Virus record (IMG/VR): IMGVR_UViG_3300009370_000001
Strand: one strand, 5' to 3'
DNA length: 64,000 bases
DNA from: a virus
Taxonomy: Duplodnaviria > Caudoviricetes
In this document: positions 32,301 through 62,921 of the stretch, piece by piece
Position numbering within the stretch: the stretch's first letter is position 1
How the letters are laid out: the number at the start of each line of letters is the position of its first letter
Made by a program: the position numbers and the translations under genes
The notes under the pieces: generated by a model
The model's database searches: none
What the model was told of the DNA's origin: nothing
What the model saw: only the letters and a program-made list of their open reading frames with translations

Positions 32301-35300
32301 CATTACGATTTTGAGCTTGATTATGGCATAACTGATAACAGTGGCTCTTATGCCAATAAGTCGGTTATCATCACGCGCTTCGGAGCCCCCGGCTCTCGCG
32401 AGACCATGGCAAGAGGATACCAAGACTTCAAGTCTTCCGAATTCTCAGCATACAATGCCACCCCTTATAGAAACTTAAGCGTTTTAAATGCAGGACAATC
32501 AAATGAAATAGACGCCCAAACTAAAGTGGGGGGTTTTGGCTATATTGTAAACGATCTTCATAACAGGCCTTTTGGTTTAAACCAACACTTAACACGCCAC
32601 ACCGCACGCTTTGGACGTGACGATATGGCAGTAACAGGCACAACTTTCGCTACAGACGGTCCAGGCGCCTCCTACAATCAATTGCCCGGATTTCACAAGG
32701 TACATCGAAACGTCAAGAGAAGACTTGAAACCATAGGAGACGGTTCACAGGTAACGGCTAGTGTATACGATAACTGGTATGTTAGACATCAAATCCCACG
32801 ATCAGATATGCAATATACATGGATTACCGCATCTTTGGTAAGCAACAATGATCATTTTGGTTACTTGCCTGCCAGTTACGAAGTAAGCACTTCGGCAGGA
32901 TACACGGAACCTTATAATTTTGTGAGCGCCAGCGATTTTGGAATCTACCAATACACCGGTTTCGGTGGTGGACTCTGGCGATTAGGCGCCACTAAGAAGA
33001 TGGTTCAAAATTACTATACCATCGGTGTTGATGCTGATTTTTTACCCTTAGACTTTGCTGGGATGAATACTATTATATATGACCACTTTTCTGCAAGTTC
33101 TAATGTGCTCGGGTTGCGCTCACCGGAGAGTGTTTACGACTATAATCTCTATGACCCACCCCAGACTAGGTTTTATTTCAACACTACTGTGATCACAAAC
33201 GCGGGATTGATTAATCCAGGCATCCCGGGCTGGCTATGGGGCGCTCCGATTCCCAAGGGCGCATTCGACGCGCGCGCATTTAACCTGTTGAACCTTCACC
33301 GTAATGGCCCTTACGGATGGCCAATCTTTAAGCAGATTGATTATAACAATCCTCTCACTCGTTATGAACGCCGCAATAATCAGATTTCAATCTTAATGGC
33401 CGATTCTGGCGCTTATGGTACCGATTTCAAAACTTTCGACTTAAGTCCAGTTTCAATGCGCGCACACCCTGGCAAGATCAACTTTGATAATAATTCTCAA
33501 GATATGACTATTGTGGCTAGTCATAACAACGCGAGAATCTTTTTTAAGGAAGCTGAACTTAACGATCTTGTGAATATTAACTATTCTGATATTGTAACTC
33601 CCTTTGAGCAAATGCTTGACGTCACGACTATGGGAGACAGGTATAGCACCAATTGGATTATGTATAGTCAACAGTTATACCCATCAGAGAGAAATGAGTT
33701 TGAAAGCTATATCACTAAGAGAACTGGATATAACAATAAATTCTGGCGTTCAACACAAGCGCAGCGTATCGATCAAGCTCAAGGTGACGGTGTTCCTCCG
33801 TTGCGAGGCGGAACCCTTATCCCTAATTCGTGGGGATGCCCGTGGCTCGCTCCCCTTCCGGATCAGCGCGCCGCAGCAGGCATGTATGGTGGCAACTATA
33901 TTCAACTTACACAATCATCATGGCCATTAGATCCTGTTAAGGATTTTCTCACGCGTCCTCAAGCTACTCGGCACCCACGCTTAGGTGCCGGCTCGCCGGC
34001 TTCCTACAGAGAGGGCGGTATTAAGTTTAGAAACTCAGGCTCCGGCGAGCTTCAGAATCAATATATTATGCCGGCATTTCGGCCCTCTTATTTAGCATAT
34101 GTGGTTGGTGTTGGAGACTTTGGCTCGCCCGGTGCGCTATATTCTCGTAAACAAACACTAGGCTCTTACAAATCCGTTGTAAGTCCCTATGGCATTGTGC
34201 TGCCTAGCACGGGCGCCCTATCTTCTGCACTAGATCCTCGCGAACAAATTGAGACTTTTGCAGGAGAGGCAGTTTGGGATTGTCCCACTTATGCCGGCAT
34301 TAACATTCAAACTGGAAGCACCTTTACTTTCCAATCTCAAAGTTCCGATCCTTGGTTTAGCGATTACGAGACATTCCAGTACGATTTGAAACTAGCAGCG
34401 AAAGACTATTCTATTGTACCGGAATTCCGCATTAGCGAGCATATTGCGGATTTTAAGAAATATGGATTATTCGGTGCACATAATAGTGATATTTTCGAAA
34501 TTCCCGGTACCGGCATTAATAGTGCAAAGAGCAGCAGCTTCTACCGCGATTATTCTAATTCTGAATTTATGAAGGGCTTTTTAAATATTAAAGAAGATTC
34601 CGGTATTTTACCACGCGAGATAGAAATCGAATGTGAAGCAGCCATTAGATTTAATCCTTATAAAGGATTTTACCCCGTTCAGCGCTCATTAGATCTTGTA
34701 TCCCAATGGTCTAGTTCCTATGCAGACGGGATCACTGTAACCGTTGATGGAGATGGCACAACCTCGATGGGCCCAACAATTGGTTCCAGTAGTTTCGGAC
34801 AGAAGTTGCTTACCGATATGGGGCTCTATATTAGACCTATGATCGCGCCTCTCTTTGCGCCCGGTATTCTCTACAATTCTATTAAGTCTGGAATGGCGGT
34901 AGATTATCCTGTTGTCACAGACGATACAAAGATATTGCGCTGGCCGTTTTTCTCTGCGTCTATCGACACCTCCGGGGTCGCCGACACGATTAAGGGACCA
35001 GAGAAGCGAGATACTTGGGCTTTGACAATCAACCCAAATACCTTAAAAGTTAGCGCTAACGATACTAACGGATATGATGGAAAGTCTTTCTTTGATAAGA
35101 GACTTCCATTTGAAACCATGATCAAGCCTGAAGGTCAGATAGATGGGATGCAATTCATTGATATGGAATCAAATATTTCTTGTTCAGCTTTGACAACTGC
35201 TTCATTTGCTAGTCCTGCTGTCGATGATAATTATACTTTAATGGCTAGCAATTATTTTGCCGAGATTGGGAACTTTTTCCTTAAAGATTCTCACTATACT

Positions 35301-37475
35301 AAATTAGAATCAGATATTATTGCTGATAAGCTTAAATTTGAGAGCGGGAGCGTGTATGCAGCGCGCATTAAACTTAAGAGATCCTATATCGGCGCACGTA
35401 CATATGAAAATGAAATCGATTCCGGCGGGTTTACCTTTGCTGCTAATGGAACCCAAGGCCGATGGCGCCTCTTTGGCGGCGCCGGCCAAGAGATTGATGA
35501 TCTACCATATCCTTCCGGTGCTTATTTTCCTGTGCCTCAAGATCCAACTCGACAAGACGGCTTTAGAGAGAGTTTCACCCTTTACAGTCGACCAACTGCC
35601 TTTGGCCCGCCAATAGCCGCTTTGCGCAAGACAGGATCAAATGCGCATGTTCCCAATGATACCACGGTTGCGCAACTCGAAACCGCGATTAGCGAACAAA
35701 CGGGTAATTACCCTCACGATTCTATTAATGGGTTTAACTGGGCGTTTACTCCCCCTTACTATGATGGAGAATCATGGGCAGATGTTATTTTCCGACCTGA
35801 TTCCACTAAAGAATATAGTGTCCAAGATATCTTAGCCGATTCTAAAGTACGCTACTGGCGCCATGACGCCGGAGGTCCCCATGGCGCGGATTCGTTAGGC
35901 TTCGTGGGAAACCTTTCCGGAGCTTATATTGGTTTGTCCCGCGGTATTTATGATGGAGAAAATATTAACCGTAATGCGATGCAAATATCTGCTAGTATTA
36001 ATTTGTTTGGATTTGAACAAGTGCCATTTACCGAAAGAGATGCTTTCGGGAACGTGGCAACTACCCGTGACACCACGACAGGAACTCGATGGGTTCTCCA
36101 ACCTAAATTTGAAACCCCGCACTTAAACTTTAATGATGCTTATAACCAAGCACAAGTACCTATTTATGGTTCCGCTTCTGTGCCAATTGGGATTTGGCAC
36201 CAATTTGGCAAAATCCCCACAAATCCAGAGGTAGGAATTTTCTTAGAGATTGACGATATACCAGAACAATGGCAAAAATATCACTATGATATGTTTTATT
36301 ATGACAGCATCTATAATGATAATAATGCGGCCTCTTTTGTGGCGGGCAAAACACCATTTAGATCATTGACTGATGTTTTTGGATTCAAGTCCAATAGTAA
36401 ATCTAAACGTCTAGGAGAATTGGCCGATTCGCAAACACTTAGAGAGGCTATTGTGGCTATCCCATATTATACGGAACAAACCCCTGGTGATTATAGTTTG
36501 ACTACCGAGAAGACCGCCCGAACCCAGTATACTAAAAAATTCATTAGTATTCCCAAGGAAAGAATACAAGCCGCAGCCGAAGAGCAAGTGGGTTCTCTAG
36601 AAGGAGATTCTTTGGACACTGCGGGGTCTTCGATTAGAAAGCTTTTACAGAAGATGGATCGCTACGTCCTTCCTCCGCAATTTGATTTTAAATCTAATAA
36701 AAACATTGATCCTATTGCTATGTATATTATAGAATTTGAATATAAACTAGACAAAGACGATTTGTCCTATATTTGGCAAAATATGGCACCGAGAGATTAT
36801 AAGAAGCTTTCATTCCAGAAATCATCTGTAGCCCACGAATTGATGGACACAGAATTATTATCGGGGCATAATATTCTTGAGAGCGAAAATTTACGCTGGA
36901 TGGTGTTTAAGGTTAAACAAAAATCGCAAGCCTTTTATGATGATTCTGTGGTCGCACAAATCGGACAGACAACTAGAGACGCCTTTATTCAGCAACGCCG
37001 AAGAACCGAGCAAGGCTATAATCTAAATTACAACTGGCCTTATGACTATGTATCTTTTGTTGAGATGGTTAAAGTAAACGCCAAGGTGCTTTATGGCGGC
37101 CGCAGCACCGGTGTTCAAGGAGAACGAGTGCCTGCTGGTCAAAACGAACGTGTTCCTGTCTTAGAAACGCCAGCGCGCGAAGGGTCGCGAACTCTTCCGA
37201 GAGCGGCAGCAATAAATGAACAAGTAGCGGAAAGAGTACGAGCCCTCCCCCGGAGAGCACGACGCCGCGCCGCCCGCGGAGCCAGAGGCCGCCAAGCGAC
37301 TCTTCCGCTTGCCGATCAACAAACACGAGCAACTGCTCGTCGCCAGGGGCGCCGGCGTAACAACACTAATACCACACGCCGCGCAACTAATCCGACTCGC
37401 ACGCGAAGAACTCGCCGCGGCAGAGGCGGTGGCGGTAATCGCGGCGGAGGTGGCCGCGGCGGCGGAGGTTATTAA
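26292..37475 (+). CDS. Giant baseplate/tail protein (3727 aa) with two LamG/concanavalin-A-like domains and an Arg/Gly-rich C-terminus
   Basis: LamG-like motifs SIEFWLK...WTHVALV...LYING...MDEFRFW (about 26880-27440) and WNHVAVTWD...FFVNG...MDEVSIW (about 30960-31590); located in the baseplate operon. Confidence 0.7.
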   Translation: MSIKKLFGSVEDGRNYLSDTDQKEAFKDVESERNLEQLKEKQSNFVPQVDYSDPRFFARFGSAYYYYKGAMERITDYYPYDGSDAEINGFYNKLLDVEKYIFNNLYPRTNGYVELGEATTTSLSKLSGGYATPTTKEYITLKGGPNAIDSAGSLVKASNNPYSDKFQYSNVYDTSIYTTAGLPSDYGVGTRQSNLQCNFDTGVSIEFWLKKPTFGTCPETVFDLWTSGSQSGSVDYGRITVELTGASGVSPFLLTVQSGSAVSIEPGMTAAGIFQQSIGSGITAASLDTWTHVALVMYNTGSDFASKLYINGGLNDTYVTGSTTINQLKQKDTFARIGALLTAPSGAAATADSAVADYDGINKLSASMDEFRFWKEKRSGEDIGRYWFSQVRGGTNTDISNTTLGVYYKFNEGITETSSVDSNVLDYAGRITNGVWTGYGTNSRSTGSAMIESSASAQEYKDPIIYSSHSSVSNLKSELLATGSYHDAQNNSMFRNYAPSWIIEEAEQLGNNNLDVVSHIVGTYFDRVHLLSQQVPKLRGINYTSASSEPVPFAQHLPQSLGLYTPEIFIDANVMERFLNRNNDMLFENDLDETKNLIYLNLYNNLANIFKSKGTERSLRNVLRCFNIDEQIVKINTYAKNTTFPLSNNYEQVIEKVSYANFDKKENRTAVIYQRADSTNPNSRGYIPTGSKPGSEGGTEYANYEMQYGCTIEGQIMFPHWSVDYSDNQRDYTTVSLFGGITPYTSSADGLTGADTSANYPDYTNFQVQAIKTGPNSKDVYFKLTSSAPAYGVPEQFPTLTSSVFSNVYDNTTWNLSVRVKPKLDGPITTVSGASVTQYDVIFEGINIDLGTIENSFTVGGVVSAATGSASDFLTRPKRLYVGAQRTNLTGPVVHKSDVLVGSLRYWAKALNTGSLSQHAHDIDNYGISGSYQSVAAIDTANKSADVLNLNTLALNWAFNQLSSSNSTGVFVVPDISSGSTSLATDYGPMGTITGYQHNGYGYDFPNSSTDAIEKRLTNTFKFISPERATSADAIQILSEDDKVFGITETVPNYVYTVEKSMYRAVSEEMLDFFAGVVDFNNVIGAPVNRYRGRYKSLEKLREIFFRKVTKTSQVEKFVEYYKWFDDAIGHIMAQMVPASSDFVADVYNTVESHVLERNKYQTKYPSLETKQNHPEAQMEGVGGLGITYKNYSSPVPASPRNTNQNIQYWLKKAKRSEPEITSGNPTIDTQRENMRQIINTAPRASTKPGELMTSGIAGSGTKYFQDFYPQRNYQKLYKLKSYDADASIHGGVNFSKDQNIQYTYNSLYPFGPVSTEENRFIPLNVLVGLTSDLVSIQDFEDDRELRRKVKRVFKVQSARRWYQDEGYSDVKSSMAFPFNIMSSSLNSGYNKEVQTKVGANIEITNLHNDTYGQAMGTPMQGPFTEKYVGGHQSRHITYNSGATDTYLTRPEAWKLLLGQCADQGSGAIGMASPTYPYPDIGAPPSSAYGRIDFTSNPITDNSVTISDGDTSLTFTIPFMNTYATHHADQVRSYIVIGGDNSSSYGNPTLAEPQYFDIDAGTYSCWISGSIPMTGNGNLIIMGVNHATFNFSLIDDGSTPPGSSPASKLRLTQQWLNGASAGSTVNSYWTTDNKEVPLGQWNHVAVTWDATTTGSTEPVFFVNGVQVDSSRDGSAVPTAAGSTLRLALKARSGLPSGNPKVTCLIGGYNASNAISGAMDEVSIWQLSMSADQISELYATGSVTDLMQHSVYTSNNSNLRAWYRMGDDPNDAIDGTGVYDLGTNSIVDQTGRYNGTPGEDMTVDFATNVITSSATGDNIAWTRGGNTNATAVNLTTAINAQSFNIVASNPEGDAETITVSNTKYGVPTSTKKEARGSLGNVSLSRVGSRISVEGMQGGSDPQIINFNAPRATYYREELAKRPVNIRNIQMTTGSTIIGNYQNNYEVVSTVGAFANPRDFIENQPTLPSVITTKTNLNRGGANRFTGRTGQAVLNYLTLDRASGSHYDFELDYGITDNSGSYANKSVIITRFGAPGSRETMARGYQDFKSSEFSAYNATPYRNLSVLNAGQSNEIDAQTKVGGFGYIVNDLHNRPFGLNQHLTRHTARFGRDDMAVTGTTFATDGPGASYNQLPGFHKVHRNVKRRLETIGDGSQVTASVYDNWYVRHQIPRSDMQYTWITASLVSNNDHFGYLPASYEVSTSAGYTEPYNFVSASDFGIYQYTGFGGGLWRLGATKKMVQNYYTIGVDADFLPLDFAGMNTIIYDHFSASSNVLGLRSPESVYDYNLYDPPQTRFYFNTTVITNAGLINPGIPGWLWGAPIPKGAFDARAFNLLNLHRNGPYGWPIFKQIDYNNPLTRYERRNNQISILMADSGAYGTDFKTFDLSPVSMRAHPGKINFDNNSQDMTIVASHNNARIFFKEAELNDLVNINYSDIVTPFEQMLDVTTMGDRYSTNWIMYSQQLYPSERNEFESYITKRTGYNNKFWRSTQAQRIDQAQGDGVPPLRGGTLIPNSWGCPWLAPLPDQRAAAGMYGGNYIQLTQSSWPLDPVKDFLTRPQATRHPRLGAGSPASYREGGIKFRNSGSGELQNQYIMPAFRPSYLAYVVGVGDFGSPGALYSRKQTLGSYKSVVSPYGIVLPSTGALSSALDPREQIETFAGEAVWDCPTYAGINIQTGSTFTFQSQSSDPWFSDYETFQYDLKLAAKDYSIVPEFRISEHIADFKKYGLFGAHNSDIFEIPGTGINSAKSSSFYRDYSNSEFMKGFLNIKEDSGILPREIEIECEAAIRFNPYKGFYPVQRSLDLVSQWSSSYADGITVTVDGDGTTSMGPTIGSSSFGQKLLTDMGLYIRPMIAPLFAPGILYNSIKSGMAVDYPVVTDDTKILRWPFFSASIDTSGVADTIKGPEKRDTWALTINPNTLKVSANDTNGYDGKSFFDKRLPFETMIKPEGQIDGMQFIDMESNISCSALTTASFASPAVDDNYTLMASNYFAEIGNFFLKDSHYTKLESDIIADKLKFESGSVYAARIKLKRSYIGARTYENEIDSGGFTFAANGTQGRWRLFGGAGQEIDDLPYPSGAYFPVPQDPTRQDGFRESFTLYSRPTAFGPPIAALRKTGSNAHVPNDTTVAQLETAISEQTGNYPHDSINGFNWAFTPPYYDGESWADVIFRPDSTKEYSVQDILADSKVRYWRHDAGGPHGADSLGFVGNLSGAYIGLSRGIYDGENINRNAMQISASINLFGFEQVPFTERDAFGNVATTRDTTTGTRWVLQPKFETPHLNFNDAYNQAQVPIYGSASVPIGIWHQFGKIPTNPEVGIFLEIDDIPEQWQKYHYDMFYYDSIYNDNNAASFVAGKTPFRSLTDVFGFKSNSKSKRLGELADSQTLREAIVAIPYYTEQTPGDYSLTTEKTARTQYTKKFISIPKERIQAAAEEQVGSLEGDSLDTAGSSIRKLLQKMDRYVLPPQFDFKSNKNIDPIAMYIIEFEYKLDKDDLSYIWQNMAPRDYKKLSFQKSSVAHELMDTELLSGHNILESENLRWMVFKVKQKSQAFYDDSVVAQIGQTTRDAFIQQRRRTEQGYNLNYNWPYDYVSFVEMVKVNAKVLYGGRSTGVQGERVPAGQNERVPVLETPAREGSRTLPRAAAINEQVAERVRALPRRARRRAARGARGRQATLPLADQQTRATARRQGRRRNNTNTTRRATNPTRTRRTRRGRGGGGNRGGGGRGGGGY

Positions 37476-54574: not shown

Positions 54575-55633
54575 ATGAAAGTAACCAAATCAAAACTAAA
54601 GCAGATTATTAATGAAGAACTGGGACAAGAACTCCAAGAACTTTATATCCCTTTTATTGGCGGGAAACTTCCCGAGAAAGAATATGCAATCCGTAGGAAG
54701 CAGTTGGACGCCATTGGCGATATGGCAAATGACCTAAGCGCGGAAGAGGAAGAACAATTCTTAAGGTACGCGAGCCGGTTGGTAGCACCCAAGGAGGAAG
54801 GGGAAGGCTTTGTCCTGCTGAGCGACAGGATAGAAGCTGGTCTTCTAGGACAATTGTTTCAACAACTGAGGCGCCTTCTGTATGACCGTCACCCTAAACA
54901 TAAAGCACAGAGTCTTATGAACCGTTTTGATCAAAACGCAGATCGGTTGTCCAAAGAGTTGGGCGGACTAGCCCAAGAAATAGCCGATCAGAAAGCTGAT
55001 GCTGCGGCAAGAGAAAAGGCCGCCCGGGAAGAAAGGTATGAGAGGGAACAACGAGAAGAAGAAGAAGAAAAAGCAAGAGCGCGAAATAGGAGAGACGCAG
55101 AAGAAGCCCGTTCGGCGCAGGAGTACCTGAGTATGTCCGATGCAGAACGTACTCGACTGCGCAAGCGGTCAGGATCGTCGTCCCACCGCGTTAACCCCGG
55201 CTTTGCAGGCTCAGGAAACATGGGCTATGGAGAATCACTCGATAGGAGAATCCCAATGAAAGTAACCAAAGCACAACTTCAAGAGATCATCCTTGAAGAG
55301 CTTACAATCGCTTTAGACGAGCTTGGCGCTGGCAAAGGCGCCGGCATGAGCCTGCGCGCTGCCCAACTCGGTGGAACCGGACACGGCAAGCGCGATGAAG
55401 ACGAAGAATACGTCGATCCCGAAGTCGATCCTTATGAGAAAGCGCTGGAAGCTCCGTTGGCCGAAGAAGAGGATGACGAGTGGATTCAAGACGCAGAGAA
55501 AGATATTAAAAAGCGCGGCACCGAGGGTGTCTGCACTGGGGATAAATTTGGTGGTCCCACATGCAAGCCTGGAACGAAACGATACAACTTAGCAAAGACG
55601 TTCCGGAAGATGGCGAAAGACCGCAAAAAATAA
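54575..55633 (+). CDS. Leader-motif protein (352 aa) with an internal second leader and a C-terminal Cys-containing module
   Basis: Starts MKVTKSKLKQIINEEL after AGGAGA; second MKVTKAQLQEIILEEL in frame at 55256. Confidence 0.75.
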   Translation: MKVTKSKLKQIINEELGQELQELYIPFIGGKLPEKEYAIRRKQLDAIGDMANDLSAEEEEQFLRYASRLVAPKEEGEGFVLLSDRIEAGLLGQLFQQLRRLLYDRHPKHKAQSLMNRFDQNADRLSKELGGLAQEIADQKADAAAREKAAREERYEREQREEEEEKARARNRRDAEEARSAQEYLSMSDAERTRLRKRSGSSSHRVNPGFAGSGNMGYGESLDRRIPMKVTKAQLQEIILEELTIALDELGAGKGAGMSLRAAQLGGTGHGKRDEDEEYVDPEVDPYEKALEAPLAEEEDDEWIQDAEKDIKKRGTEGVCTGDKFGGPTCKPGTKRYNLAKTFRKMAKDRKK

Positions 55634-55637
55634 AAGC

Positions 55638-55666
55638 TTGACTCTTGCTTGACAATGAGTTATACT
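55638..55666 (+). promoter_or_regulatory. Sigma70-like promoter upstream of the Mre11-Rad50 fusion
   Basis: TTGACT (55638-55643), 17-bp spacer, TATACT (55661-55666); GGAGG Shine-Dalgarno at 55683-55687. Confidence 0.75.
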
Positions 55667-55691
55667 ATAAGAGTATCTATGCGGAGGGTAC

Positions 55692-58600
55692 GTGAAGTTT
55701 GCACATATAAGTGATACTCATATCAAAAATCTGAAGTATCATTATGAATATCGAGTCATTTTTGAGCAGTTGTATGAAACGCTGCGGGAACAAAAAGTCG
55801 ATTACATTATACACTGTGGGGATATAGCCCACACCAAGACCCAGATCTCACCAGAGTTTGTTGAGATGTGTTCTGATTTTTTTCGCAGTCTCGCTGAGAT
55901 TGCACCAACCTATATCATTCTAGGAAACCATGACGGCAACCTAAAGAACAGCAGTCGTCAAGACGCACTGACACCGATTGTCGACGCGCTCAATCTGCCG
56001 ACACTGCACTTGCTTAAAGATTCAGGCGAGACTCATTTGAACGACGATTTCTGTTTGAATGTCTTGTCTGTTTTTGATCGAGACAACTGGATGAAGCCCA
56101 CCAATACTGACAAGATCAATATTGCACTTTATCATGGCTCAATCTCTAATTGTAAAACTGATACCAATTGGACGATGAGTTTTGGTGAAGATGATATATC
56201 TATCTTTGACGATTTTGATTTTTCTATGCTTGGTGATATTCACCGTCGCCAATTCCTAGATCACGATGGACGCGTTTGGTATGCTGGCTCAACTGTTCAG
56301 CAGAACCATGGCGAGACCAACGACAAAGGTATTCTCATTTGGGATATCAAATCTAAAGACGAATGGGACATTGAGCCGATTGTGTTTAAAAACCCTAAGC
56401 CGTTCTTTACAATCCCGCTCACACTCAAGGGGCGGATGCCTCGCAATCTCCAAGTACCCACTGGCGCACGCCTGCGATTGGTTAGTAACAATAACCTTCC
56501 GCTTAACACGATGCGCCGAGCAATGGACATTGCGAAGCATCGCTTTAAGCCCGAGAGCATCTCGTTTCTCAACAGAGCAGCAGGCGAGCGCGGTAATGTA
56601 GAAGATCTAACTGACGGTATTAAGACAGAAAACCTGCGAGACATTAAAGTCCAAGAAGAACTGATTGACGAGTTCCTTTCAGATTACCAGACCGATGCCA
56701 CAACCCTAGAGCGCGTGTTTGAGCTTAACAGCAAGTACAACAAGATTATCGAGGACCGAGAAGAGATCTCTAGAAACGTAAACTGGAGAATCAAGTCGTT
56801 TAAATGGGACAATCTGTTTAATTACGGAAAGGATAACTCCATCGACTTTGAAAACCTTAACGGCATCATTGGCGTTTTTGGAAAGAACTTCAGCGGCAAA
56901 TCTAGCATCATTGATGCGGCCCTGTATACATTGTTCAACACCACCTCAAAGAACGAGCGCAAAAACCTCAACGTTATTAATCAACATCAAGAATCTTGCG
57001 AAGGCGTTTTAGAGATCGAGATCGGACACAAAGTCTACAACATTAAGCGCACCTCTGAAAAATATACGAAACGCTTGAAAGGTGTTGAGACCTTAGAAGC
57101 CAAAACAGATTTGAACTTCGAAGTCTATGACCCTGTCACAGACGAGACAACATCCTTAAACGGCACCACACGCAATCAGACGGACGCAAATATTCGAAAG
57201 CACTTCGGGTCCATGGATGATTTTATGGTGTCTTCTCTGGCAAGCCAGCACGGTGCATTGGGATTCATTGATGAGGGTTCGACACGTCGAAAGGAAATCA
57301 TCGCCAAGTTCCTCGATTTGGAGCTGTTTGACCAAAAGTTTAAGATGGCCAAAGACGACTCTGTTGAGGCCAAGGCTCTCCTGCGCAAGTATGAGGATCG
57401 GGATTACAACACTGAGGTGCAGGCATTAGAAACCAGCTTGGAAGACTTGACTGTACAAGCGGAAACTAATCGCACAACTTGCGAGGATTATCGTAAAGAA
57501 CTTAAACTTCTGAACGAAGGAGCGAGACGCTTAGACGAGAAGATCAATTCTATTCCTGGCAAGCTTATTGACATCACAAAAGTCATGACAGAGCAAAAAG
57601 ATAAGCAAGTGTTGTCGAAGTTGTTGGAGGAGAAGATAACAAGCCAAACAGCACTGGCACTTGTCAAGCAGCAGAAAGTGGCAATATCAGAGAGCTTATT
57701 AGAGCTTATCGATCATGCCACCCTCACAGCCGACAAAGCAGAAATTGATACTTTAGATCATAGTATTATGAATCTTCGAGAAGAGATTGAAAAGATTGGC
57801 AAAAAGGAAAAGCTTTTGAAGAGTATCCCCTGCGGCGATTCTTATCCTTCGTGTCGATTTATCAAAGATGCCTATATTGACGTAGCTAACAAGCCAGGAA
57901 TTGAAGCAGACCTTCACGCGGCCGCTATGCGTTTAGAAACGTTGTCTCCTGACGACACAGCCGAAAAGCTTGAAGAGTATCGTTTAACGCAAGAACTGAT
58001 TGTAGAACTAAAGGCGGAAGTTGCCGCGCTGCAATTAGAATGCGAACGTAATAAGAACACAAAGGCCACAACTGATCAAGAATTGATCACTCTCACCACC
58101 AAGGTCGCTGAATATAAGCAAAACAAAAAGGTTATTGATGGACTTGAAAAAGTCATCAAAGAACGACAAGGTTACCAAACTAAGATCGAGACTAAAAAAG
58201 AAAAGATTGAAATCTGTGATAACGAGACATTAGAGATTGTACGACAGGTGGGTTCCTATGAAGAGAAGATTGAATCTCTCAAGGCTCAAAGTAAGGAGTA
58301 TCAAGACCTTCAGAATAGTTATGCGGCATACGATTTGCTTATGCAATGCATGCACCCTAACGGAATCGCTTACGATATTATCAAGAAAAAGATTCCAGTC
58401 ATTAACCAGGAGATTGCAAAAGTTCTCGCCAACATTGTTGAGTTCGAAGTGTTTTTTGAGACCAGCGGAAACAAGCTTGACATCTTTATTAAGCATCCTA
58501 AGCACGACGAACGGCCCATTGAAATGGCGTCAGGTGCAGAAAAGACAATGGCCGCGATGGCAATTCGTTTGGCTCTTTTAAGTGTTTCTTCACTTCCAAA

Positions 58601-58799
58601 GTCGGACTTGTTTATCCTCGATGAGCCGGGCACCGCATTGGACGAAGAAAATATGGAGGGTTTTATTAGGATCTTGGAACTAATTAAGGTATATTTTAAG
58701 AACGTTCTCTTGATCTCGCATTTAGACTCTCTCAAAGATTGCGTCGACATGCAGATTGTAATAGAAAAGAAAAAAGGCTACGCAAAGGTAAACCAATAA
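55692..58799 (+). CDS. Fused Mre11/SbcD nuclease - Rad50/SbcC ATPase (gp47-gp46-like)
   Basis: Phosphoesterase motifs HISDTH, CGDIAH, GNHD, YHG and GDIH; Walker A GKNFSGKSS; coiled coil; signature ASGAEK; Walker B ILDEPGTALD; H-loop ISH; GTG start. Confidence 0.92.
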   Translation: MKFAHISDTHIKNLKYHYEYRVIFEQLYETLREQKVDYIIHCGDIAHTKTQISPEFVEMCSDFFRSLAEIAPTYIILGNHDGNLKNSSRQDALTPIVDALNLPTLHLLKDSGETHLNDDFCLNVLSVFDRDNWMKPTNTDKINIALYHGSISNCKTDTNWTMSFGEDDISIFDDFDFSMLGDIHRRQFLDHDGRVWYAGSTVQQNHGETNDKGILIWDIKSKDEWDIEPIVFKNPKPFFTIPLTLKGRMPRNLQVPTGARLRLVSNNNLPLNTMRRAMDIAKHRFKPESISFLNRAAGERGNVEDLTDGIKTENLRDIKVQEELIDEFLSDYQTDATTLERVFELNSKYNKIIEDREEISRNVNWRIKSFKWDNLFNYGKDNSIDFENLNGIIGVFGKNFSGKSSIIDAALYTLFNTTSKNERKNLNVINQHQESCEGVLEIEIGHKVYNIKRTSEKYTKRLKGVETLEAKTDLNFEVYDPVTDETTSLNGTTRNQTDANIRKHFGSMDDFMVSSLASQHGALGFIDEGSTRRKEIIAKFLDLELFDQKFKMAKDDSVEAKALLRKYEDRDYNTEVQALETSLEDLTVQAETNRTTCEDYRKELKLLNEGARRLDEKINSIPGKLIDITKVMTEQKDKQVLSKLLEEKITSQTALALVKQQKVAISESLLELIDHATLTADKAEIDTLDHSIMNLREEIEKIGKKEKLLKSIPCGDSYPSCRFIKDAYIDVANKPGIEADLHAAAMRLETLSPDDTAEKLEEYRLTQELIVELKAEVAALQLECERNKNTKATTDQELITLTTKVAEYKQNKKVIDGLEKVIKERQGYQTKIETKKEKIEICDNETLEIVRQVGSYEEKIESLKAQSKEYQDLQNSYAAYDLLMQCMHPNGIAYDIIKKKIPVINQEIAKVLANIVEFEVFFETSGNKLDIFIKHPKHDERPIEMASGAEKTMAAMAIRLALLSVSSLPKSDLFILDEPGTALDEENMEGFIRILELIKVYFKNVLLISHLDSLKDCVDMQIVIEKKKGYAKVNQ

Positions 58800-59707
58800 T
58801 GAAATTATTAATGGAAAATTGGCGAAAATTTGTCAATGAAACTGAAGAAAATCTTCACGAACTGGATAAGGGCGCGCTTTATGCGTTAAATAATCCAGGC
58901 ACTCCCTTGGCAACTTACGTCGCGGTACTTAAGAAATATGCGAATGATCCAGAATTTGATAAGATCGCCGGCGCAGGCCAAGCCGATGGCCAGCCGGCCG
59001 ATGAGGTGGCTAAGGTGCAGCCGGGCGCTATAGCTGCACAAGATCTCACAGCGACCCAAGCAGAAATTGGATTTGGAAATAGTCTGGCTGATCAGGTAGC
59101 TAATAAATACGACGCCACTAAAACTGCTCTTGGACTAAACGGATCTCCAATTGTTATGGCTTCGAAGTCAGGTCCAGTTCCAATTTTAGTATACAATGGA
59201 AAATATATTTTAGACGGGCATCACCGGTGGTCACAAATTATGATGGTCAATCCAGGTGGTACTGTTAAGGTCGACAATTTAACTGGACCCGCTATCGACA
59301 ATGAAGAAGAGGCTCTTAAGGTTATGCAATTCGCCATCGCTGCGACTGCTGACAAAGTAGTGACAAAGCCATTTGAGGGTGAAAATTTAATGCAAGCAAA
59401 CGAGCAACAAGTAGCGAACTTTGTTCTTAAAAATGTTACTGATGAAGTCTTGCAGCTTTTAGTTCAGGCTGAGAAGATTGAAAAACCAGATAAACGCCTC
59501 GCTGCCCAATATATTGCTGGTAATCTGCCGGTCATTAAGAAGTCTGCCGGCCGGTTCTCTCGCGAGAAAAGTATGCCTCAAGCCGGCGACTCTGGCGTTT
59601 CACAGGATGCGGTTAATCAAGCGCTTGGCACAGGCAAGGTTAACTTTGATAGCCCCAAGCCGGCCGACGCATATGGGAACCGCCCAGAGAAAAAAGCCGC
59701 AGAATAA
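58799..59707 (+). CDS. ParB/Sulfiredoxin-like domain protein with an N-terminal MKLLMENWRKF leader
   Basis: LTATQ, PILV...YILDGHHRWSQ motif; the true start is probably ATG 58799 (TAATG overlap). Confidence 0.7.
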   Translation: MKLLMENWRKFVNETEENLHELDKGALYALNNPGTPLATYVAVLKKYANDPEFDKIAGAGQADGQPADEVAKVQPGAIAAQDLTATQAEIGFGNSLADQVANKYDATKTALGLNGSPIVMASKSGPVPILVYNGKYILDGHHRWSQIMMVNPGGTVKVDNLTGPAIDNEEEALKVMQFAIAATADKVVTKPFEGENLMQANEQQVANFVLKNVTDEVLQLLVQAEKIEKPDKRLAAQYIAGNLPVIKKSAGRFSREKSMPQAGDSGVSQDAVNQALGTGKVNFDSPKPADAYGNRPEKKAAE

Positions 59708-59722
59708 TAAACGGAGATTATA

Positions 59723-60850
59723 ATGAACAACCCTGACGATTTTGATTTTGCCGAGACAGCAACGGAAACCAATCCGCCTGCTCTCGAAACCCCTAAAACT
59801 AGTGAGTTCGACGACTTTGATTTCGTCGATCACTATGGAGACGATGAAGAAGTAACCCACGAGAATTTGCTTCCGGAGAACACTGTTCCCGCATCACTGA
59901 ACTGTGCCATTGTTGGCGTAGGTGGAGGTGGGGGCAAGATGGCCAAAGCCTTTCTCGATCTTGGCTACAACAGGACTCTGCTTGTTAATACCACTGCTAA
60001 AGATATCCCTGACGCTGTGGGTGATGAGCATGTGGTTTTGATTCCCGATGCCGATGGCATTGGAAAAGATGTGAATTTAGGAAAAGCTGTGTTTGATGCA
60101 AACAGTACAGTCGTAGAAGATGCCCTCCGCACAAAATTAGGCAAAGTTGACTGGCTGTTCGTTTGCGCTGGAGGTGGCGGTGGAACTGGTTCTGCCGTCG
60201 CTTCTCTACACAGCGTCTTTGAGCGCTACCTTAAGTCGGTACAAGCCGAAGGCGAGGTAGTATACATTACGTCGTGGCCGACCGCACAAGAATGCTTGAA
60301 TCCAACAATTAGCAAGAATGCGTTAGCTTTACTTAATGATGTTTCCCAGCACACTCACATCGTTTTGGACAACGAACGCCAAGTTAAATTGTTGCGCGGA
60401 AAGGTGGGGATGCTGAATCTGTTTCCTTCTGCCAACACGGCGTTTGCAAAGTTAATGACTCAAATTCTCAAACTCTCCAGCGATAAATCGCCGATTCAAT
60501 CGTTTGATACCAAAGATCTAGAAAGATGTTTGCGAACCCCACAAAGAATGTTTATTGGATCGACAATGGTAAAAGATCCCGCTACGCCAAACCTAGGCGC
60601 TACGATTCTTCAGAATTGTATGAAGCGTTCTCCGTGTCCCGCCCCCAAAGGTAAGCCCCAAACCGGCGCATTATTATTGATTGCGTCGTCTGAGATGGCA
60701 AACGATCCAGAGATTAGCAAACACATGGATGCAGCGATTGGATATGTTGGCGGCAGAACAGACACACTTTTTTCAGGTGTTTATATTAATGATAATGTAC
60801 CTGGGCTCGTTGCCATACTATGTATGAATGGGCTACCCAAAGGAAAATAA
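59723..60850 (+). CDS. FtsZ/tubulin-family GTPase
   Basis: IVGVGGGGGK, LVNT, DGIGKD, signature AGGGGGTGS, LDNE, and T7-loop-like SFDTKDL; CGGAG Shine-Dalgarno. Confidence 0.9.
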   Translation: MNNPDDFDFAETATETNPPALETPKTSEFDDFDFVDHYGDDEEVTHENLLPENTVPASLNCAIVGVGGGGGKMAKAFLDLGYNRTLLVNTTAKDIPDAVGDEHVVLIPDADGIGKDVNLGKAVFDANSTVVEDALRTKLGKVDWLFVCAGGGGGTGSAVASLHSVFERYLKSVQAEGEVVYITSWPTAQECLNPTISKNALALLNDVSQHTHIVLDNERQVKLLRGKVGMLNLFPSANTAFAKLMTQILKLSSDKSPIQSFDTKDLERCLRTPQRMFIGSTMVKDPATPNLGATILQNCMKRSPCPAPKGKPQTGALLLIASSEMANDPEISKHMDAAIGYVGGRTDTLFSGVYINDNVPGLVAILCMNGLPKGK

Positions 60851-60853
60851 TAA

Positions 60854-61015
60854 ATGAGTACACCACGAGATTTAGCGCGAGATACATGGGCAAGAACGAA
60901 GCAGCTTGTTTTGCTTAACGGCGCATTAGAAGATTATGTCCTGCTCGCCGTTACGAAAGTAACGTGTTTGGCTATCGGACTTGCCGCTGGCTGGCACATG
61001 TGGGGAGGAGTATAA
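60854..61015 (+). CDS. Small membrane protein (53 aa), not in ORF track
   Basis: Translated by hand as MSTPRDLARDTWARTKQLVLL...CLAIGLAAGWHMWGGV; fills the gap exactly and abuts the next ATG. Confidence 0.6.
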   Translation: MSTPRDLARDTWARTKQLVLLNGALEDYVLLAVTKVTCLAIGLAAGWHMWGGV

Positions 61016-61360
61016 ATGAAAATCACCAAATCCCAATTGATGCAGATTATTAAAGAAGAAACATCTAGCTTAAACGAAATGCCGTATCGGCAAGGGGGTC
61101 GCCACGCCGGCTACGACGCCAATTGGCGCCGCACGTTTGGTGAGCCAGATCCCTCTCAAAAAGATACGGAAGCACAAGCCATTGCAGACATGGATGTGGG
61201 AATTGCGCGAGAGTTTGCGCAAGACGTTGTAGAATTTGTACGCCAGAATGTAGCTTCTGAGCAGGCACCAGCCCTGGCAGAAATGTCGATGGGGGACTTT
61301 TTGAGACTAGCTGCTGATTTAGCAGGCGATGAGCCGCTGGTAACACAAGTCGGAGAATAA
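61016..61360 (+). CDS. Leader-motif protein (114 aa)
   Basis: Starts MKITKSQLMQIIKEETSSLNE; GGAGG Shine-Dalgarno. Confidence 0.75.
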   Translation: MKITKSQLMQIIKEETSSLNEMPYRQGGRHAGYDANWRRTFGEPDPSQKDTEAQAIADMDVGIAREFAQDVVEFVRQNVASEQAPALAEMSMGDFLRLAADLAGDEPLVTQVGE

Positions 61361-61361
61361 G

Positions 61362-61598
61362 ATGAAAGTAACCAAGTCCCAATTGATGCAGATCATCAAA
61401 GAGGAGATTACGAATATGAATCGTGGACTTCGAGAGTTTGCAGAATGGGTGATGGAAGTAAATGGACATATTGAAAGCTTGTCTGACGAATATGTATCGG
61501 CAGACGAATTGGCCACCGACGTTAATCTGTATGATTTATGGTACCAGGGAATCCCGGCTGCCGCGGCTGCGCAAGATCTTATAAGCGGTGACTATTGA
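61362..61598 (+). CDS. Leader-motif protein (78 aa)
   Basis: Starts MKVTKSQLMQIIKEEI; CGGAG Shine-Dalgarno. Confidence 0.75.
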   Translation: MKVTKSQLMQIIKEEITNMNRGLREFAEWVMEVNGHIESLSDEYVSADELATDVNLYDLWYQGIPAAAAAQDLISGDY

Positions 61599-61732
61599 TG
61601 AAGCTTTGGAATAAACTAAATCACTGGCTCGACTGGCGCGGCATTAAGTGGACCGACATTATCGGCTCGGGTGTAGCGTTTGGAACAATCATCGGACTAG
61701 TTATAGTATTAACCTGGGCAGGATTGCAATGA
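61598..61732 (+). CDS. Small membrane protein (44 aa), not in ORF track
   Basis: MKLWNKLNHWLDWRGIKWTDIIGSGVAFGTIIGLVIVLTWAGLQ; TGATG and ATGA couplings on its two sides. Confidence 0.6.
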   Translation: MKLWNKLNHWLDWRGIKWTDIIGSGVAFGTIIGLVIVLTWAGLQ

Positions 61733-61926
61733 GAGAAAGGCTTCGAAGGTTATGGAGTGTAGACGTGCTGGCTGTAGGGCTGGCATTACTTGCTTTGGCA
61801 TACGCGTGCTGTGTGCACCATCGAGCCCAAGAAAGATTGAATGAAATTGAAGGCGTGGTTAACGAAGGAATTCATATTCCGACACAGCCAACTCCACCAG
61901 TGAGGTTCGAACCAGAATGTCAATAA
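61729..61926 (+). CDS. Small membrane-anchored protein with a Pro-rich tail (65 aa)
   Basis: MRERLRRLWSVDVLAVGLALLALAYACC...IPTQPTPP; ATG 61729 overlaps the upstream stop. Confidence 0.55.
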   Translation: MRERLRRLWSVDVLAVGLALLALAYACCVHHRAQERLNEIEGVVNEGIHIPTQPTPPVRFEPECQ

Positions 61927-62921
61927 AGATTACAAAAAAGAAACTGATGGAAACTGTGGAGAAGGAAATGAAAAATGTCCTTCTAGAGACATATTTGCGC
62001 ATCCACCTTTCACAAGTTTTAACAGAGCGAACTGAGGGAATGTCGACTGCTAAAATTGAGGCGCTGCTCTCATCTGTGATTGACAATTTGGAGGGTATCG
62101 ATATGAGTATCGATTACCTCACTTCAGCGATAACTGGTCATGATCCATATTCTTTGGGGATCGCACAGAAGGTGGCCGGCCGCGGCGGCGGACGCTTCTC
62201 TCCTGTTCCATCCCCTCCGGAACAAGTCTCTGAAGCGGAAGAATTGTCGGAACTAAACCCTAATAAAACATTGGACCAACAAGAGCCCGAGGACTTTGAA
62301 GAGCCCGAGGAAGATCCTGACGCTTTAAGGTCCGATACAGTTTTAGGGGCCACCGGAAAATGGCCTGAAGAGCCTTCTGAGCCAGCGCAACAACGGCCTC
62401 CTCGTGAATATCGAAGTAAGGCCATTGAACTTTTGGCTTCGTTTCATGTAAATGTTGATCAGCAAGCTATAGATGCAGTGGCGTGGCAACTATACCACAA
62501 TGCCATGGGCGCCCCCACGCAGGCGATGGAAGAACCCCCGAAGAAACGAAAAAGATTTAAGTTTTTTGAAAACGTAGGAAAACGCCCTAATGCTGAGCTA
62601 CTAGCTTTATTGCGAACAATGTTGAAAACTGCCGAAGATCCTTATGCAGATGAACAACGACTCCTATCTTTAGGAGGTGAATTAGAAGACATGCTCGGCC
62701 AATTGGCGCCGGCAGCCGAGTGGGCCCAAGAGCAGGGCTATGACCGGCCTACATATAGTGAAAACCTACAGCAGTATATTAGAGAAGAACTCGAAGCTTA
62801 TTTGGAAGAAGAGGAAAAGAATAATCCTTGGGCCATATGCACTAGTTCTGTCGGCAGAGAAGATAAAGAAAAATATGAGAAATGCGTAAAAAGCATAAAA
62901 GCACAAAATAGAGGAAAATAA
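61917..62921 (+). CDS. Acidic leader-motif protein (334 aa) with a C-terminal NPWAICT module
   Basis: N-terminal IKITKKKLMETVEKEM; internal LQQYIREELEAYLEE; C-terminal NPWAICTSSVGREDKEKYEKCV. Confidence 0.7.
   Translation: MSIKITKKKLMETVEKEMKNVLLETYLRIHLSQVLTERTEGMSTAKIEALLSSVIDNLEGIDMSIDYLTSAITGHDPYSLGIAQKVAGRGGGRFSPVPSPPEQVSEAEELSELNPNKTLDQQEPEDFEEPEEDPDALRSDTVLGATGKWPEEPSEPAQQRPPREYRSKAIELLASFHVNVDQQAIDAVAWQLYHNAMGAPTQAMEEPPKKRKRFKFFENVGKRPNAELLALLRTMLKTAEDPYADEQRLLSLGGELEDMLGQLAPAAEWAQEQGYDRPTYSENLQQYIREELEAYLEEEEKNNPWAICTSSVGREDKEKYEKCVKSIKAQNRGK

What the first reader, a model, noticed from the sequence alone, without database searches (positions are those of the whole stretch)
58799..60850. 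ParB-like protein adjacent to an FtsZ/tubulin GTPase in a T4-like phage: possible new genome-positioning module
Seen: a DGHHR-type ParB/Srx-domain gene is followed 15 bp later by an FtsZ/tubulin homolog with intact GGGTGS and T7-loop-like DxxD motifs. Established: PhuZ positions DNA in phiKZ-like phages, TubZ partition systems use TubR adaptors, and ParB normally partners ParA ATPases. Inference: a ParB-fold adaptor paired with a tubulin is an unusual combination. It could position phage DNA or capsids, or interfere with host division. The ParB-like protein carries the MKLLMENWRKF leader, so it may be delivered from the virion.
Basis: partly seen in the sequence, partly recalled or inferred. 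Interest (0 to 1): 0.75.

Follow-up and report, generated by a model that had tools for sequence, protein, structure and literature searches.

The report
Phage tubulin with swappable ParB-like neighbour
An uncultured marine T4-like phage carries its own, apparently undescribed tubulin/FtsZ-type filament protein, but the ParB-like gene in front of it is an exchangeable gene cassette that is missing from the closest relatives, so the two are probably not a fixed DNA-positioning pair.

Summary
Gene A (58799-59707) has a ParB/sulfiredoxin fold with an invariant DGHHRW motif and the MKLLMENWRKF leader. Gene B (59723-60850), 15 bp downstream, is a complete tubulin/FtsZ-fold GTPase. Its GTP loops and its T7 Asp pair are invariant across the 20 aligned relatives.

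The "ParB adaptor plus tubulin module" reading fails its own synteny test:
- Relatives with 91-93% identical tubulin have the SbcCD nuclease gene joined directly to the tubulin gene. Gene A is a clean 911-bp insertion or deletion between AATAA repeats.
- Other close relatives hold unrelated DGHHRW genes in the same slot.
- Four complete tubulin-bearing genomes have no such gene, and two near-complete genomes have the ParB-like gene but no tubulin.
- The ParB-like family usually lies in the T4-type head/packaging module, next to the prohead protease or upstream of the large terminase. The tubulin also sits in or beside that module, in five different slots. A shared module can therefore explain why the two recur close together.

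The tubulin is a separate, virus-only clade. By structure it is nearest CetZ/TubZ. It is not PhuZ, and the genome has no chimallin and no ParA.

This scan reached the same verdict earlier on another genome (e1-3420088).

The parts
55692..58799 (+). Fused SbcD-SbcC (T4 gp47/gp46-like) nuclease, 1035 aa. It is the conserved left flank of the variable slot.
   Evidence: Pfam Metallophos plus SMC_N; PHROG 77 and 100. It lies directly upstream of the tubulin in relatives L001, L005, L006, L008, L049, L065 and others.
58799..59707 (+). Gene A: leader-tagged ParB/sulfiredoxin-fold protein, 302 aa.
58799..58840 (+). Portable N-terminal leader MKLLMENWRKFVNE, a candidate capsid-targeting tag.
   Evidence: The same leader stands on unrelated neighbouring genes in relatives and on 8 ORFs of this genome. 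Leader-bearing family members abut the prohead protease gene. Function untested.
59045..59059 (+). LTATQ box (residues 83-87; usually L-x-P-T-Q) of the ParB/Srx core.
   Evidence: L83 and Q87 are invariant in 31 sequences. A P(T/S)Q-type box is present in the divergent DGHHRW genes next to tubulins.
59213..59230 (+). DGHHRW motif (residues 139-144), at the position of ParB box II (GERR).
   Evidence: Invariant in the alignment. It is the only stretch matched in SerK/1VK1 by profile search.
58800..59710 (+). The 911-bp cassette that is absent from the closest relatives. It is bounded by AATAA at 58795-58799 and 59706-59710.
   Evidence: The L001 junction reads CCAATAA-ACGGAGATT with nothing in between. 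L004 has a different DGHHRW gene at the same left junction.
59708..59722 (+). 15-bp spacer with the ribosome-binding site GGAG (59713-59716).
   Evidence: The same ACGGAGATT sequence precedes the tubulin in L001.
59723..60850 (+). Gene B: tubulin/FtsZ-superfamily GTPase, 375 aa, with no C-terminal tail.
59723..59887 (+). Acidic, disordered N-terminal arm (residues 1-55, net charge -16) with two DDFDF motifs (59735-59749 and 59810-59824). The second belongs to the conserved DDFDFVDHYG block.
   Evidence: D31, F32, F34 and H37 are invariant. pLDDT is below 50 for residues 1-45. Charge.
59915..59938 (+). T1 phosphate loop GVGGGGGK (residues 65-72).
   Evidence: G65, G67, G68, G70, G71 and K72 are invariant.
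60170..60193 (+). Tubulin signature (T4 loop) GGGGGTGS (residues 150-157).
   Evidence: G152-S157 are invariant.
60500..60517 (+). T7 loop SFDTKD (residues 260-265) between helices H7 (231-253) and H8 (263-271).
   Evidence: D262 and D265 are invariant. Helix positions come from the model.

Best explanation
The tubulin gene is the conserved element. It is a stand-alone, self-polymerising cytoskeletal GTPase. It belongs to a large clade of uncultured marine T4-like phages and always lies in or beside the head/packaging gene block.

The ParB/Srx-fold gene in front of it is a leader-tagged accessory cassette. Its usual home is the same head module, next to the prohead protease or upstream of the large terminase. 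In this genome it occupies a variable slot between the SbcCD nuclease gene and the tubulin gene.

Shown:
- the folds and the motif conservation of both proteins;
- presence/absence and swapping of the cassette among near-identical flanks;
- independent occurrence of each gene in complete or near-complete genomes;
- the head-module context of both families.

Inferred:
- The tubulin forms GTP-dependent filaments late in infection that organise head assembly or bring capsids and DNA together. This is a PhuZ-like job done without a phage nucleus, with the conserved acidic N-terminal DDFDFVDHYG arm replacing the C-terminal tail that FtsZ, TubZ and PhuZ use for contacts.
- The ParB-like protein is loaded into the prohead through its leader. 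There it acts as an NTP-binding enzyme or regulator rather than as a centromere-binding partition protein.
For: Tubulin:
- Pfam Tubulin is above cut-off.
- The profile matches CetZ 3ZID over the full length (37.8 bits).
- Foldseek gives E about 5e-19. VIA gives Z 31.5 to CetZ2, 31.3 to TubZ and 27-28 to FtsZ over about 294-312 residues at 2.5-3.0 A.
- The GTP loops, the T7 aspartates and the N-terminal motif are invariant.
- There is one copy in the genome.
- 59 of 80 tubulin loci have terminase, portal, protease, scaffold or major capsid genes within 8 kb on the same strand. The tubulin occupies five different slots in that block. In this genome it lies 5.6 kb upstream of terL.

Cassette:
- L001, L005, L006 and L008 (tubulin 90-93% identical) join SbcCD directly to the tubulin.
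- L002, L003, L004, L009 and L011 carry different DGHHRW proteins in the slot, with the same leader junction where checked in L004.
- The tubulin tree needs at least 12 gains or losses of a DGHHRW neighbour, of which at least 7 are forced by well-supported branches.

Independence:
- G001, G002, G004 and G005 (CheckV 100% complete) have the tubulin but no ParB-like core. The same holds for four further large tubulin-bearing records.
- G012 (98% complete) and G015 (100%) have the ParB-like gene but no tubulin. Cultured Microcystis phage Mel-JY01 is the same by tblastn.

Home context of the ParB-like family:
- about 16 of the roughly 77 loci with a detectable ParB-like ORF abut the prohead protease (within 50 bp);
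- about 21 lie 0.4-3.4 kb upstream of terL;
- 4 abut the major capsid gene.

No ParA-type ATPase and no repeat array around the pair were found.
Against: - The association is more frequent than random placement predicts. Every DGHHRW gene found within +/-8 kb of a tubulin lies within about one gene of it. This holds in at least seven divergent subfamilies and arrangements, including a distant tubulin subfamily in L098/L100. In the large tubulin-bearing records checked, the gene was either adjacent or absent. In the two ParB-like-bearing records that also hold a divergent tubulin (G006, G007), the two genes lie about 15 kb apart.
- In this genome gene A is the only ENW-tagged gene outside the 12-29 kb tag cluster. 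A 'cargo island' does not explain its position here.
- Filament formation, timing of expression, leader cleavage and packaging are all untested.
- The head-module position is context, not function.
Confidence: 0.7

Rival explanations
1. Facultative functional pair. DGHHRW ParB/Srx proteins are optional adaptors or regulators of the phage tubulin. They might link filaments to DNA or capsids, or modify the filament. They evolve fast and are often lost or displaced.
For: - DGHHRW genes adjoin the tubulin in at least five tubulin clades and at least seven arrangements: upstream, downstream after the protease, and as large fusions directly downstream.
- The adjacency also occurs with a distant tubulin subfamily (L098/L100).
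- The arrangement here is operon-like, with a 15-bp spacer and a 1-base overlap with SbcCD.
- In the large tubulin-bearing records checked, the gene is adjacent or absent.
- Phage ParB-like proteins without a DNA-binding domain can act as protein activators (PMC13229309).
Against: - The cassette is absent from the closest relatives.
- Four complete tubulin-bearing genomes lack it.
- About 70 of 80 ParB-like loci have no tubulin within 8 kb, and two near-complete genomes have none at all.
- The family's dominant neighbours are the prohead protease and terL, not the tubulin.
- The tubulin's N-terminal motif is the same with and without the neighbour.
Confidence: 0.15
2. The ParB-like protein is a DNA-packaging or DNA-modification accessory of the kind often found upstream of phage terminases. 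It is not a packaged cargo protein. Its position near the tubulin only reflects closeness to terL.
For: - About 21 loci have the gene 0.4-3.4 kb upstream of terL. Those examined lack the ENW leader.
- Co-occurrence of ParB with terminases and DNA-modification enzymes in phages is documented (PMC13229309).
- In this genome the gene lies 6.6 kb upstream of terL.
Against: - This copy and its closest homologues carry the portable leader, and in many relatives they abut the prohead protease among head-core genes.
- The canonical GERR box is replaced by GHHR.
- The protein is acidic overall (pI 5.3).
Confidence: 0.2
3. The tubulin acts on the host rather than on the phage. It poisons or replaces host FtsZ to block cell division and enlarge the infected cell.
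For: It has the FtsZ-like fold with intact polymerisation residues but lacks the membrane-tether tail.
Against: - It is only 16-20% identical to FtsZ structures, and E. coli FtsZ scores 22 bits against the family profile. Co-polymerisation is therefore unlikely.
- The head/packaging-module position is kept across lineages.
- No close relatives were found in 185,579 species genomes.
Confidence: 0.1

Closest known systems
CetZ (archaeal tubulin/FtsZ homologue; PDB 4B45, 4B46, 3ZID)
   Same: It is the best match by sequence profile (3ZID 37.8 bits over the full length) and by structure (Z 31.5, rmsd 2.5 A, 294 residues). Both have the two-domain core.
   Different: Identity is only 19-22%. Gene B is viral, has an acidic N-terminal arm with DDFDFVDHYG, and ends at the core. 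No CetZ sequence was available for a tree.
TubZ of Bacillus plasmids and Clostridium phage c-st (the TubZ/TubR/tubC partition system)
   Same: Structure Z is 27.8-31.3 and the N-terminal GTPase half scores 30 bits. TubZ is also carried on a phage or plasmid. Distant metagenomic relatives of gene B carry Pfam TubZ_C hits.
   Different: Gene B has no C-terminal tail for adaptor binding, and no iteron array is nearby. The genome is that of a lytic-type T4-like phage, not a plasmid prophage. The neighbour has a ParB/Srx fold, not a TubR winged helix.
PhuZ of nucleus-forming Chimalliviridae (phiKZ gp39, 201phi2-1 gp59)
   Same: Both are phage-encoded tubulins. PhuZ is known to position DNA and traffic capsids. 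The proposed late, head-related role is analogous.
   Different: phiKZ PhuZ scores -1.5 bits against the family profile. There is no Pfam TubZ_C_2 hit, no chimallin in the complete genome, and the conserved arm is at the N-terminus rather than an acidic C-terminal tail.
ParB/Srx-fold enzymes and regulators with a DGHHR-type motif (SerK 5X0B/1VK1, SbnI, sulfiredoxin, Atu1540)
   Same: They are the top structural matches (Z 4.7-5.2). They share the motif region and have an N-terminal ParB/Srx domain plus a helical domain.
   Different: The Z-scores are modest and no sequence match is significant. Gene A carries a portable leader and a C-terminal domain with an invariant M-P and near-invariant Q (MPQ). 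Its activity is unknown.
Canonical ParB (ParABS CTPase clamp) and orphan phage ParB-like activators (PMC13229309)
   Same: [quoted passage not shown] Phage examples also lack a clear DNA-binding domain and lie near terminases.
   Different: GERR is replaced by GHHR and QPR by TQ(A/D/S). There is no ParA, no parS-like repeats, and Pfam ParB_N finds nothing in the genome.
T4 internal proteins with a capsid-targeting sequence (IPI-III, Alt)
   Same: Both have a short conserved N-terminal leader on unrelated proteins. Gene A's family lies beside the gp21-type prohead protease.
   Different: The leader sequence differs, and neither cleavage nor packaging has been shown.

Membership tests
Tubulin/FtsZ superfamily | GTPase domain with the T1 loop and the GGGTG(S/T) signature | tested here: met
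   Pfam PF00091 scores 35.1 bits against a cut-off of 33. GVGGGGGK and GGGGGTGS are conserved.
Tubulin/FtsZ superfamily | Two-domain fold: N-terminal GTPase domain, helix H7, C-terminal domain | tested here: met
   AF2 model with pLDDT 80. VIA Z 25-31.5 over residues 56-375. Foldseek E about 1e-18.
Tubulin/FtsZ superfamily | T7 loop acidic residues that activate GTP hydrolysis in the neighbouring subunit | tested here: met
   D262 and D265 are invariant, in the loop between H7 and H8. Activity itself was not tested.
FtsZ proper | C-terminal linker plus conserved peptide that binds FtsA/ZipA; FtsZ_C domain signature | tested here: not met
   The protein ends at the core (GLVAILCMNGLPKGK). No FtsZ_C hit in Pfam at E<=1. 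E. coli FtsZ scores 22 bits against the family profile.
PhuZ / Chimalliviridae spindle | PhuZ-type C-terminal domain (PF22334) and an acidic C-terminal tail | tested here: not met
   PF22334 hits phiKZ gp39 at 128 bits but not gene B. phiKZ PhuZ scores -1.5 bits against the family profile.
PhuZ / Chimalliviridae spindle | Co-occurrence with chimallin (the nuclear shell protein) | tested here: not met
   PF25677 finds nothing in the complete 203-kb genome at E<=1.
TubZ/TubR/tubC partition system | TubR DNA-binding adaptor and a centromere of repeats next to tubZ | tested here: inconclusive
   No repeat array lies in 55500-62000, and the neighbour has a ParB/Srx fold rather than a winged helix. 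No dedicated TubR search was run.
ParB/Srx superfamily | ParB/sulfiredoxin fold of the core domain | tested here: met
   The six best VIA matches are all ParB/Srx-fold proteins (Z 4.2-5.2). AFDB ParB/Sulfiredoxin clusters match at E 1e-13 to 1e-9, TM 0.49-0.68. The top Foldseek PDB hit is the pNOB8 ParB N-domain, prob 0.94.
Canonical ParB (CTP-dependent partition clamp) | Box II GERR arginine patch and box I QPR | tested here: not met
   The family has an invariant DGHHRW and L-x-(P/A)-T-Q followed by a non-basic residue. Pfam ParB_N finds nothing in the genome.
Canonical ParB (CTP-dependent partition clamp) | ParA-type ATPase partner and parS sites | tested here: not met
   No PF13614 hit in the genome. 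No repeated or palindromic site array near the locus.
Canonical ParB (CTP-dependent partition clamp) | Helix-turn-helix DNA-binding domain after the N-terminal domain | tested here: inconclusive
   Residues 185-290 are helical and mildly basic (pI 8.9), but no match singles out an HTH.
T4-type capsid-targeted internal proteins | Portable N-terminal leader shared by unrelated proteins | tested here: met
   The leader stands on 8 ORFs of this genome and on many unrelated neighbours in relatives.
T4-type capsid-targeted internal proteins | Cleavage by the prohead protease and presence in the virion | not testable with these tools
   The only evidence is context: leader-bearing homologues abut the gp21-type protease gene.

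The most novel reading that the evidence does not exclude
The fast-evolving DGHHRW ParB/Srx proteins are interchangeable adaptors of a head-module tubulin. Loaded into or onto proheads through their leaders, they would couple capsids or the incoming or packaged DNA to phage tubulin filaments. This would be a capsid/DNA transport system in ordinary T4-like phages, built from a tubulin and a ParB-fold protein instead of TubR or ParA.
Probability: 0.1. Interest if true: 0.85.

Novelty: new variant of a known kind. Interest (0 to 1): 0.5.

Why it matters
Phage tubulins are known from nucleus-forming jumbo phages (PhuZ) and from plasmid-like prophages (TubZ). Here a separate tubulin clade is a conserved gene of an abundant group of uncultured marine T4-like phages:
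- it has more than 1000 metagenomic homologues;
- none of 50,697 GenBank phage records contains a relative;
- no relative turned up in 185,579 species genomes.

It sits within the head/packaging genes, and the genome has no chimallin. If it forms filaments, cytoskeleton-assisted virion assembly would not be restricted to nucleus-forming phages.

The negative result matters too. The striking ParB-tubulin juxtaposition is a cassette polymorphism, so it should not be annotated as a partition system.

Tried and rejected
- Complex prediction of tubulin with the ParB-like protein (both as alignments): no support, score 0.00 against a mark of 0.32, controls not run. This counts neither for nor against binding.
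- blastn and tblastn of both genes against GenBank phages found nothing for the tubulin even at E<=10, and one ParB-like homologue, in Microcystis phage Mel-JY01.
- A pattern scan of species genomes found no tubulin relative.
- Pfam on nine divergent DGHHRW neighbours found nothing. Their homology rests on the shared P(T/S)Q...DGHHRW core and HMM hits.
- T4 late-promoter (TATAAATA) and TTGACA searches upstream of the tubulins found no consistent motif.
- The tree with FtsZ, PhuZ and c-st TubZ was not useful. The three references sit on branches of 4-8 substitutions per site, so their placement is meaningless. Profile scores and structural Z-scores were used instead.
- I looked for a universal tubulin neighbour. 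The RKNKKFIDPRY-leader genes follow the tubulin in 19 of 80 loci only, and not in this genome.
- The 'cargo island' explanation was rejected for this genome. The other ENW-tagged genes lie at 12-29 kb, far from the pair.
- Literature searches found no description of a tubulin in marine T4-like phages. Absence from this library is not proof.
Full report
**What is there**

The window is part of a complete 203,204-bp viral genome with direct terminal repeats.
- Gene A runs from 58799 to 59707. Its ATG shares one base with the TAA of a 1035-aa fused SbcD-SbcC nuclease.
- Gene B runs from 59723 to 60850, after a 15-bp spacer that holds GGAG.
- Both are conserved coding genes. Gene B has more than 1000 metagenomic homologues and gene A has 302, on contigs of up to about 199 kb.
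- The genome is T4-like. It has baseplate wedge, primase and RuvC genes in the window. A terL-portal-protease-scaffold-major capsid block starts 5.6 kb downstream of gene B.

**Gene B is a genuine tubulin/FtsZ-superfamily GTPase**

- It passes Pfam Tubulin.
- A family profile matches CetZ 3ZID over its full length (37.8 bits), c-st TubZ (30.7 bits) and S. aureus FtsZ (about 30 bits).
- The AF2 model (pLDDT 80; residues 1-45 disordered) has the full two-domain fold.
- Foldseek gives E of about 5e-19.
- VIA gives Z 31.5 to Haloferax CetZ2 (2.5 A, 294 residues), 31.3 and 30.8 to Bacillus TubZ, 30.1 to CetZ 3ZID, 27-28 to FtsZ and 27.8 to c-st TubZ. No PhuZ appears among the 50 rows shown.
- The T1 loop, the GGGTGS signature and the T7 pair D262/D265 are invariant in the 20-sequence alignment.
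- The protein ends at the core and has no tail. Instead an acidic arm precedes the core and carries the block DDFDFVDHYG, in which D31, F32, F34 and H37 are invariant.

**Gene B belongs to none of the named families**

- E. coli FtsZ scores 22 bits against the family profile and phiKZ PhuZ scores -1.5 bits.
- The PhuZ C-terminal Pfam domain is absent.
- The genome has no chimallin.
- An exhaustive profile search of 1.8 billion representatives gives only 770 hits at E<=0.001. The core family is a tight clade (97% SH-aLRT support) within a wider set of mostly phage-borne metagenomic tubulins.
- No relative was found in 50,697 GenBank phage records. None was found in species genomes by pattern scan.

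**Gene A has a ParB/sulfiredoxin fold, but not the canonical ParB motifs**

- Pfam alone is sub-threshold.
- The AF2 model is confident (pLDDT 90).
- Its six best VIA matches are all ParB/Srx proteins: SerK, sulfiredoxin, SbnI, Atu1540, PadC and KorB, with Z 4.2-5.2.
- AFDB clusters named ParB/Sulfiredoxin match nearly the full length, at E 1e-13 to 1e-9.
- Family invariants are L83, Q87, DGHHRW, P152, A235, M259, P260 and G279.
- The canonical GERR and QPR boxes are not kept.
- The genome has no ParA-type ATPase, and there is no repeat array near the locus.
- The family looks nearer the enzyme/regulator branch of the fold than centromere-binding ParB.

**The synteny test**

Of 80 viral contigs that carry the tubulin, only about 18 have a DGHHRW gene within 8 kb.

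The closest relatives are decisive:
- L001, L005, L006 and L008 have tubulins 90-93% identical to gene B. In them the SbcCD gene is joined straight to the tubulin gene.
- The L001 junction reads CCAATAA-ACGGAGATT. This genome holds 911 extra bases there, between two AATAA copies.
- L012 has the orthologue of gene A.
- L002, L003, L004, L009 and L011 hold different proteins in the same slot. These share only the leader and the P(T/S)Q...DGHHRW core.

On the tubulin tree the neighbour needs at least 12 gains or losses.

At genome level:
- Four CheckV-complete tubulin-bearing genomes have no ParB-like core anywhere. The same holds for five further large tubulin-bearing records.
- Only about 10 of 80 ParB-like loci have a tubulin within 8 kb.
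- Two near-complete genomes and the cultured Microcystis phage Mel-JY01 have the ParB-like gene but no tubulin.

Gene A is therefore an exchangeable cassette, not a fixed partner.

**Why the two genes still meet so often**

The recurrence is real. Every DGHHRW gene within 8 kb of a tubulin is within about one gene of it. This holds in at least seven arrangements and with a distant tubulin subfamily.

The best explanation I found is a shared home.
- Using head genes identified by PHROGs in L059, the ParB-like family lies beside the prohead protease in about 16 loci, 0.4-3.4 kb upstream of terL in about 21, and beside the major capsid gene in 4.
- The tubulin has head/packaging genes within 8 kb in 59 of 80 loci. 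It occupies five slots: upstream of terL, between two genes that follow the portal gene, before the protease, before the scaffold, and after the major capsid gene.
- Two accessory genes confined to one block of roughly 20 kb will often be neighbours.

I cannot exclude a facultative functional link, and I give it about 0.15.

**Mechanism, marked as inference**

- The invariant GTP-binding and T7 residues argue for a polymerising GTPase.
- The head-module position argues for a late role in head assembly, or in bringing capsids and DNA together. This is analogous to PhuZ capsid trafficking but without a nucleus.
- The conserved N-terminal arm probably replaces the C-terminal tail used by FtsZ, TubZ and PhuZ.
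- For gene A, the portable leader and the protease-adjacent context suggest loading into the prohead, as with T4 internal proteins. A packaging or DNA-modification accessory role, as for other phage ParB-like proteins (PMC13229309), is the main alternative.

**Relation to earlier notes of this scan**

- The leader tag was noted in this genome (e1-5378495).
- Tubulins in head modules were noted in other genomes (e1-5411260, e1-5411274).
- One follow-up on another genome reached the same verdict on the ParB neighbour (e1-3420088).
- I saw these three notes only after my own synteny and head-module analyses were done. The leader note came first.

Noticed in passing
L002:4521-5045, L007, L009, L051, L068-L074 and others (locus coordinates): A third portable N-terminal leader, M(x)RKNKKFIDPRYFMDEKTE, heads proteins of 75-685 aa with unrelated bodies. 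They lie directly downstream of the tubulin in 19 of 80 relatives. This genome has none.
   Followed up: partly
window 56207-56222, 59734-59749 and 59809-59824: The 16-nt string TGACGATTTTGATTTT (peptide DDFDF) is identical in the Mre11-like part of the SbcCD gene and in the tubulin's N-terminal arm, and a third copy is 81% identical. About 0.005 such pairs are expected by chance in 6.5 kb. The meaning is unknown.
   Followed up: no
L034:9662-10645, L052:9662-10642, L032:1797-2774, L041:8648-9652: ParB-like proteins of the head-module type carry an MK(L/I)S(R/K)E.L..MI(K/E)EE leader at the N-terminus. They carry a near-copy of it (ISKERLQEIIKEELQNRKR) at the C-terminus.
   Followed up: no
window 61016-61059 and 61362-61405: Two adjacent small genes begin with the same 44-nt leader (MKITKSQLMQIIKEE / MKVTKSQLMQIIKEE), 86% identical at the DNA level. 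This is a second leader type clustered just downstream of the tubulin.
   Followed up: partly
window 55692-58799: SbcD (Mre11-like) and SbcC (Rad50-like) are fused in one 1035-aa ORF with a GTG start. T4 has two genes here (47 and 46).
   Followed up: no
window 15853-22551 and 26292-37475: Two giant ORFs of 2232 and 3727 aa lie near the baseplate wedge gene. No family search was run on them.
   Followed up: no
L180:13263-14342 (Clostridium phage c-st): In phage c-st a gene annotated 'putative ParB protein' (CST185) lies about 2.4 kb from tubZ (CST189). This is another ParB-fold gene near a phage tubulin. No link between them was examined here.
   Followed up: no
L177:12873-16268 and L177:2520-5216: A contig with a distant phage tubulin has a T4-type portal gene interrupted by two inteins and another intein-bearing 898-aa gene.
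   Followed up: no
L179:6607-9875: A bacterial-looking contig carries two tandem tubulin-family genes of 391 and 624 aa, the second with an AAA-lid region. Both are distant relatives of the phage family.
   Followed up: no
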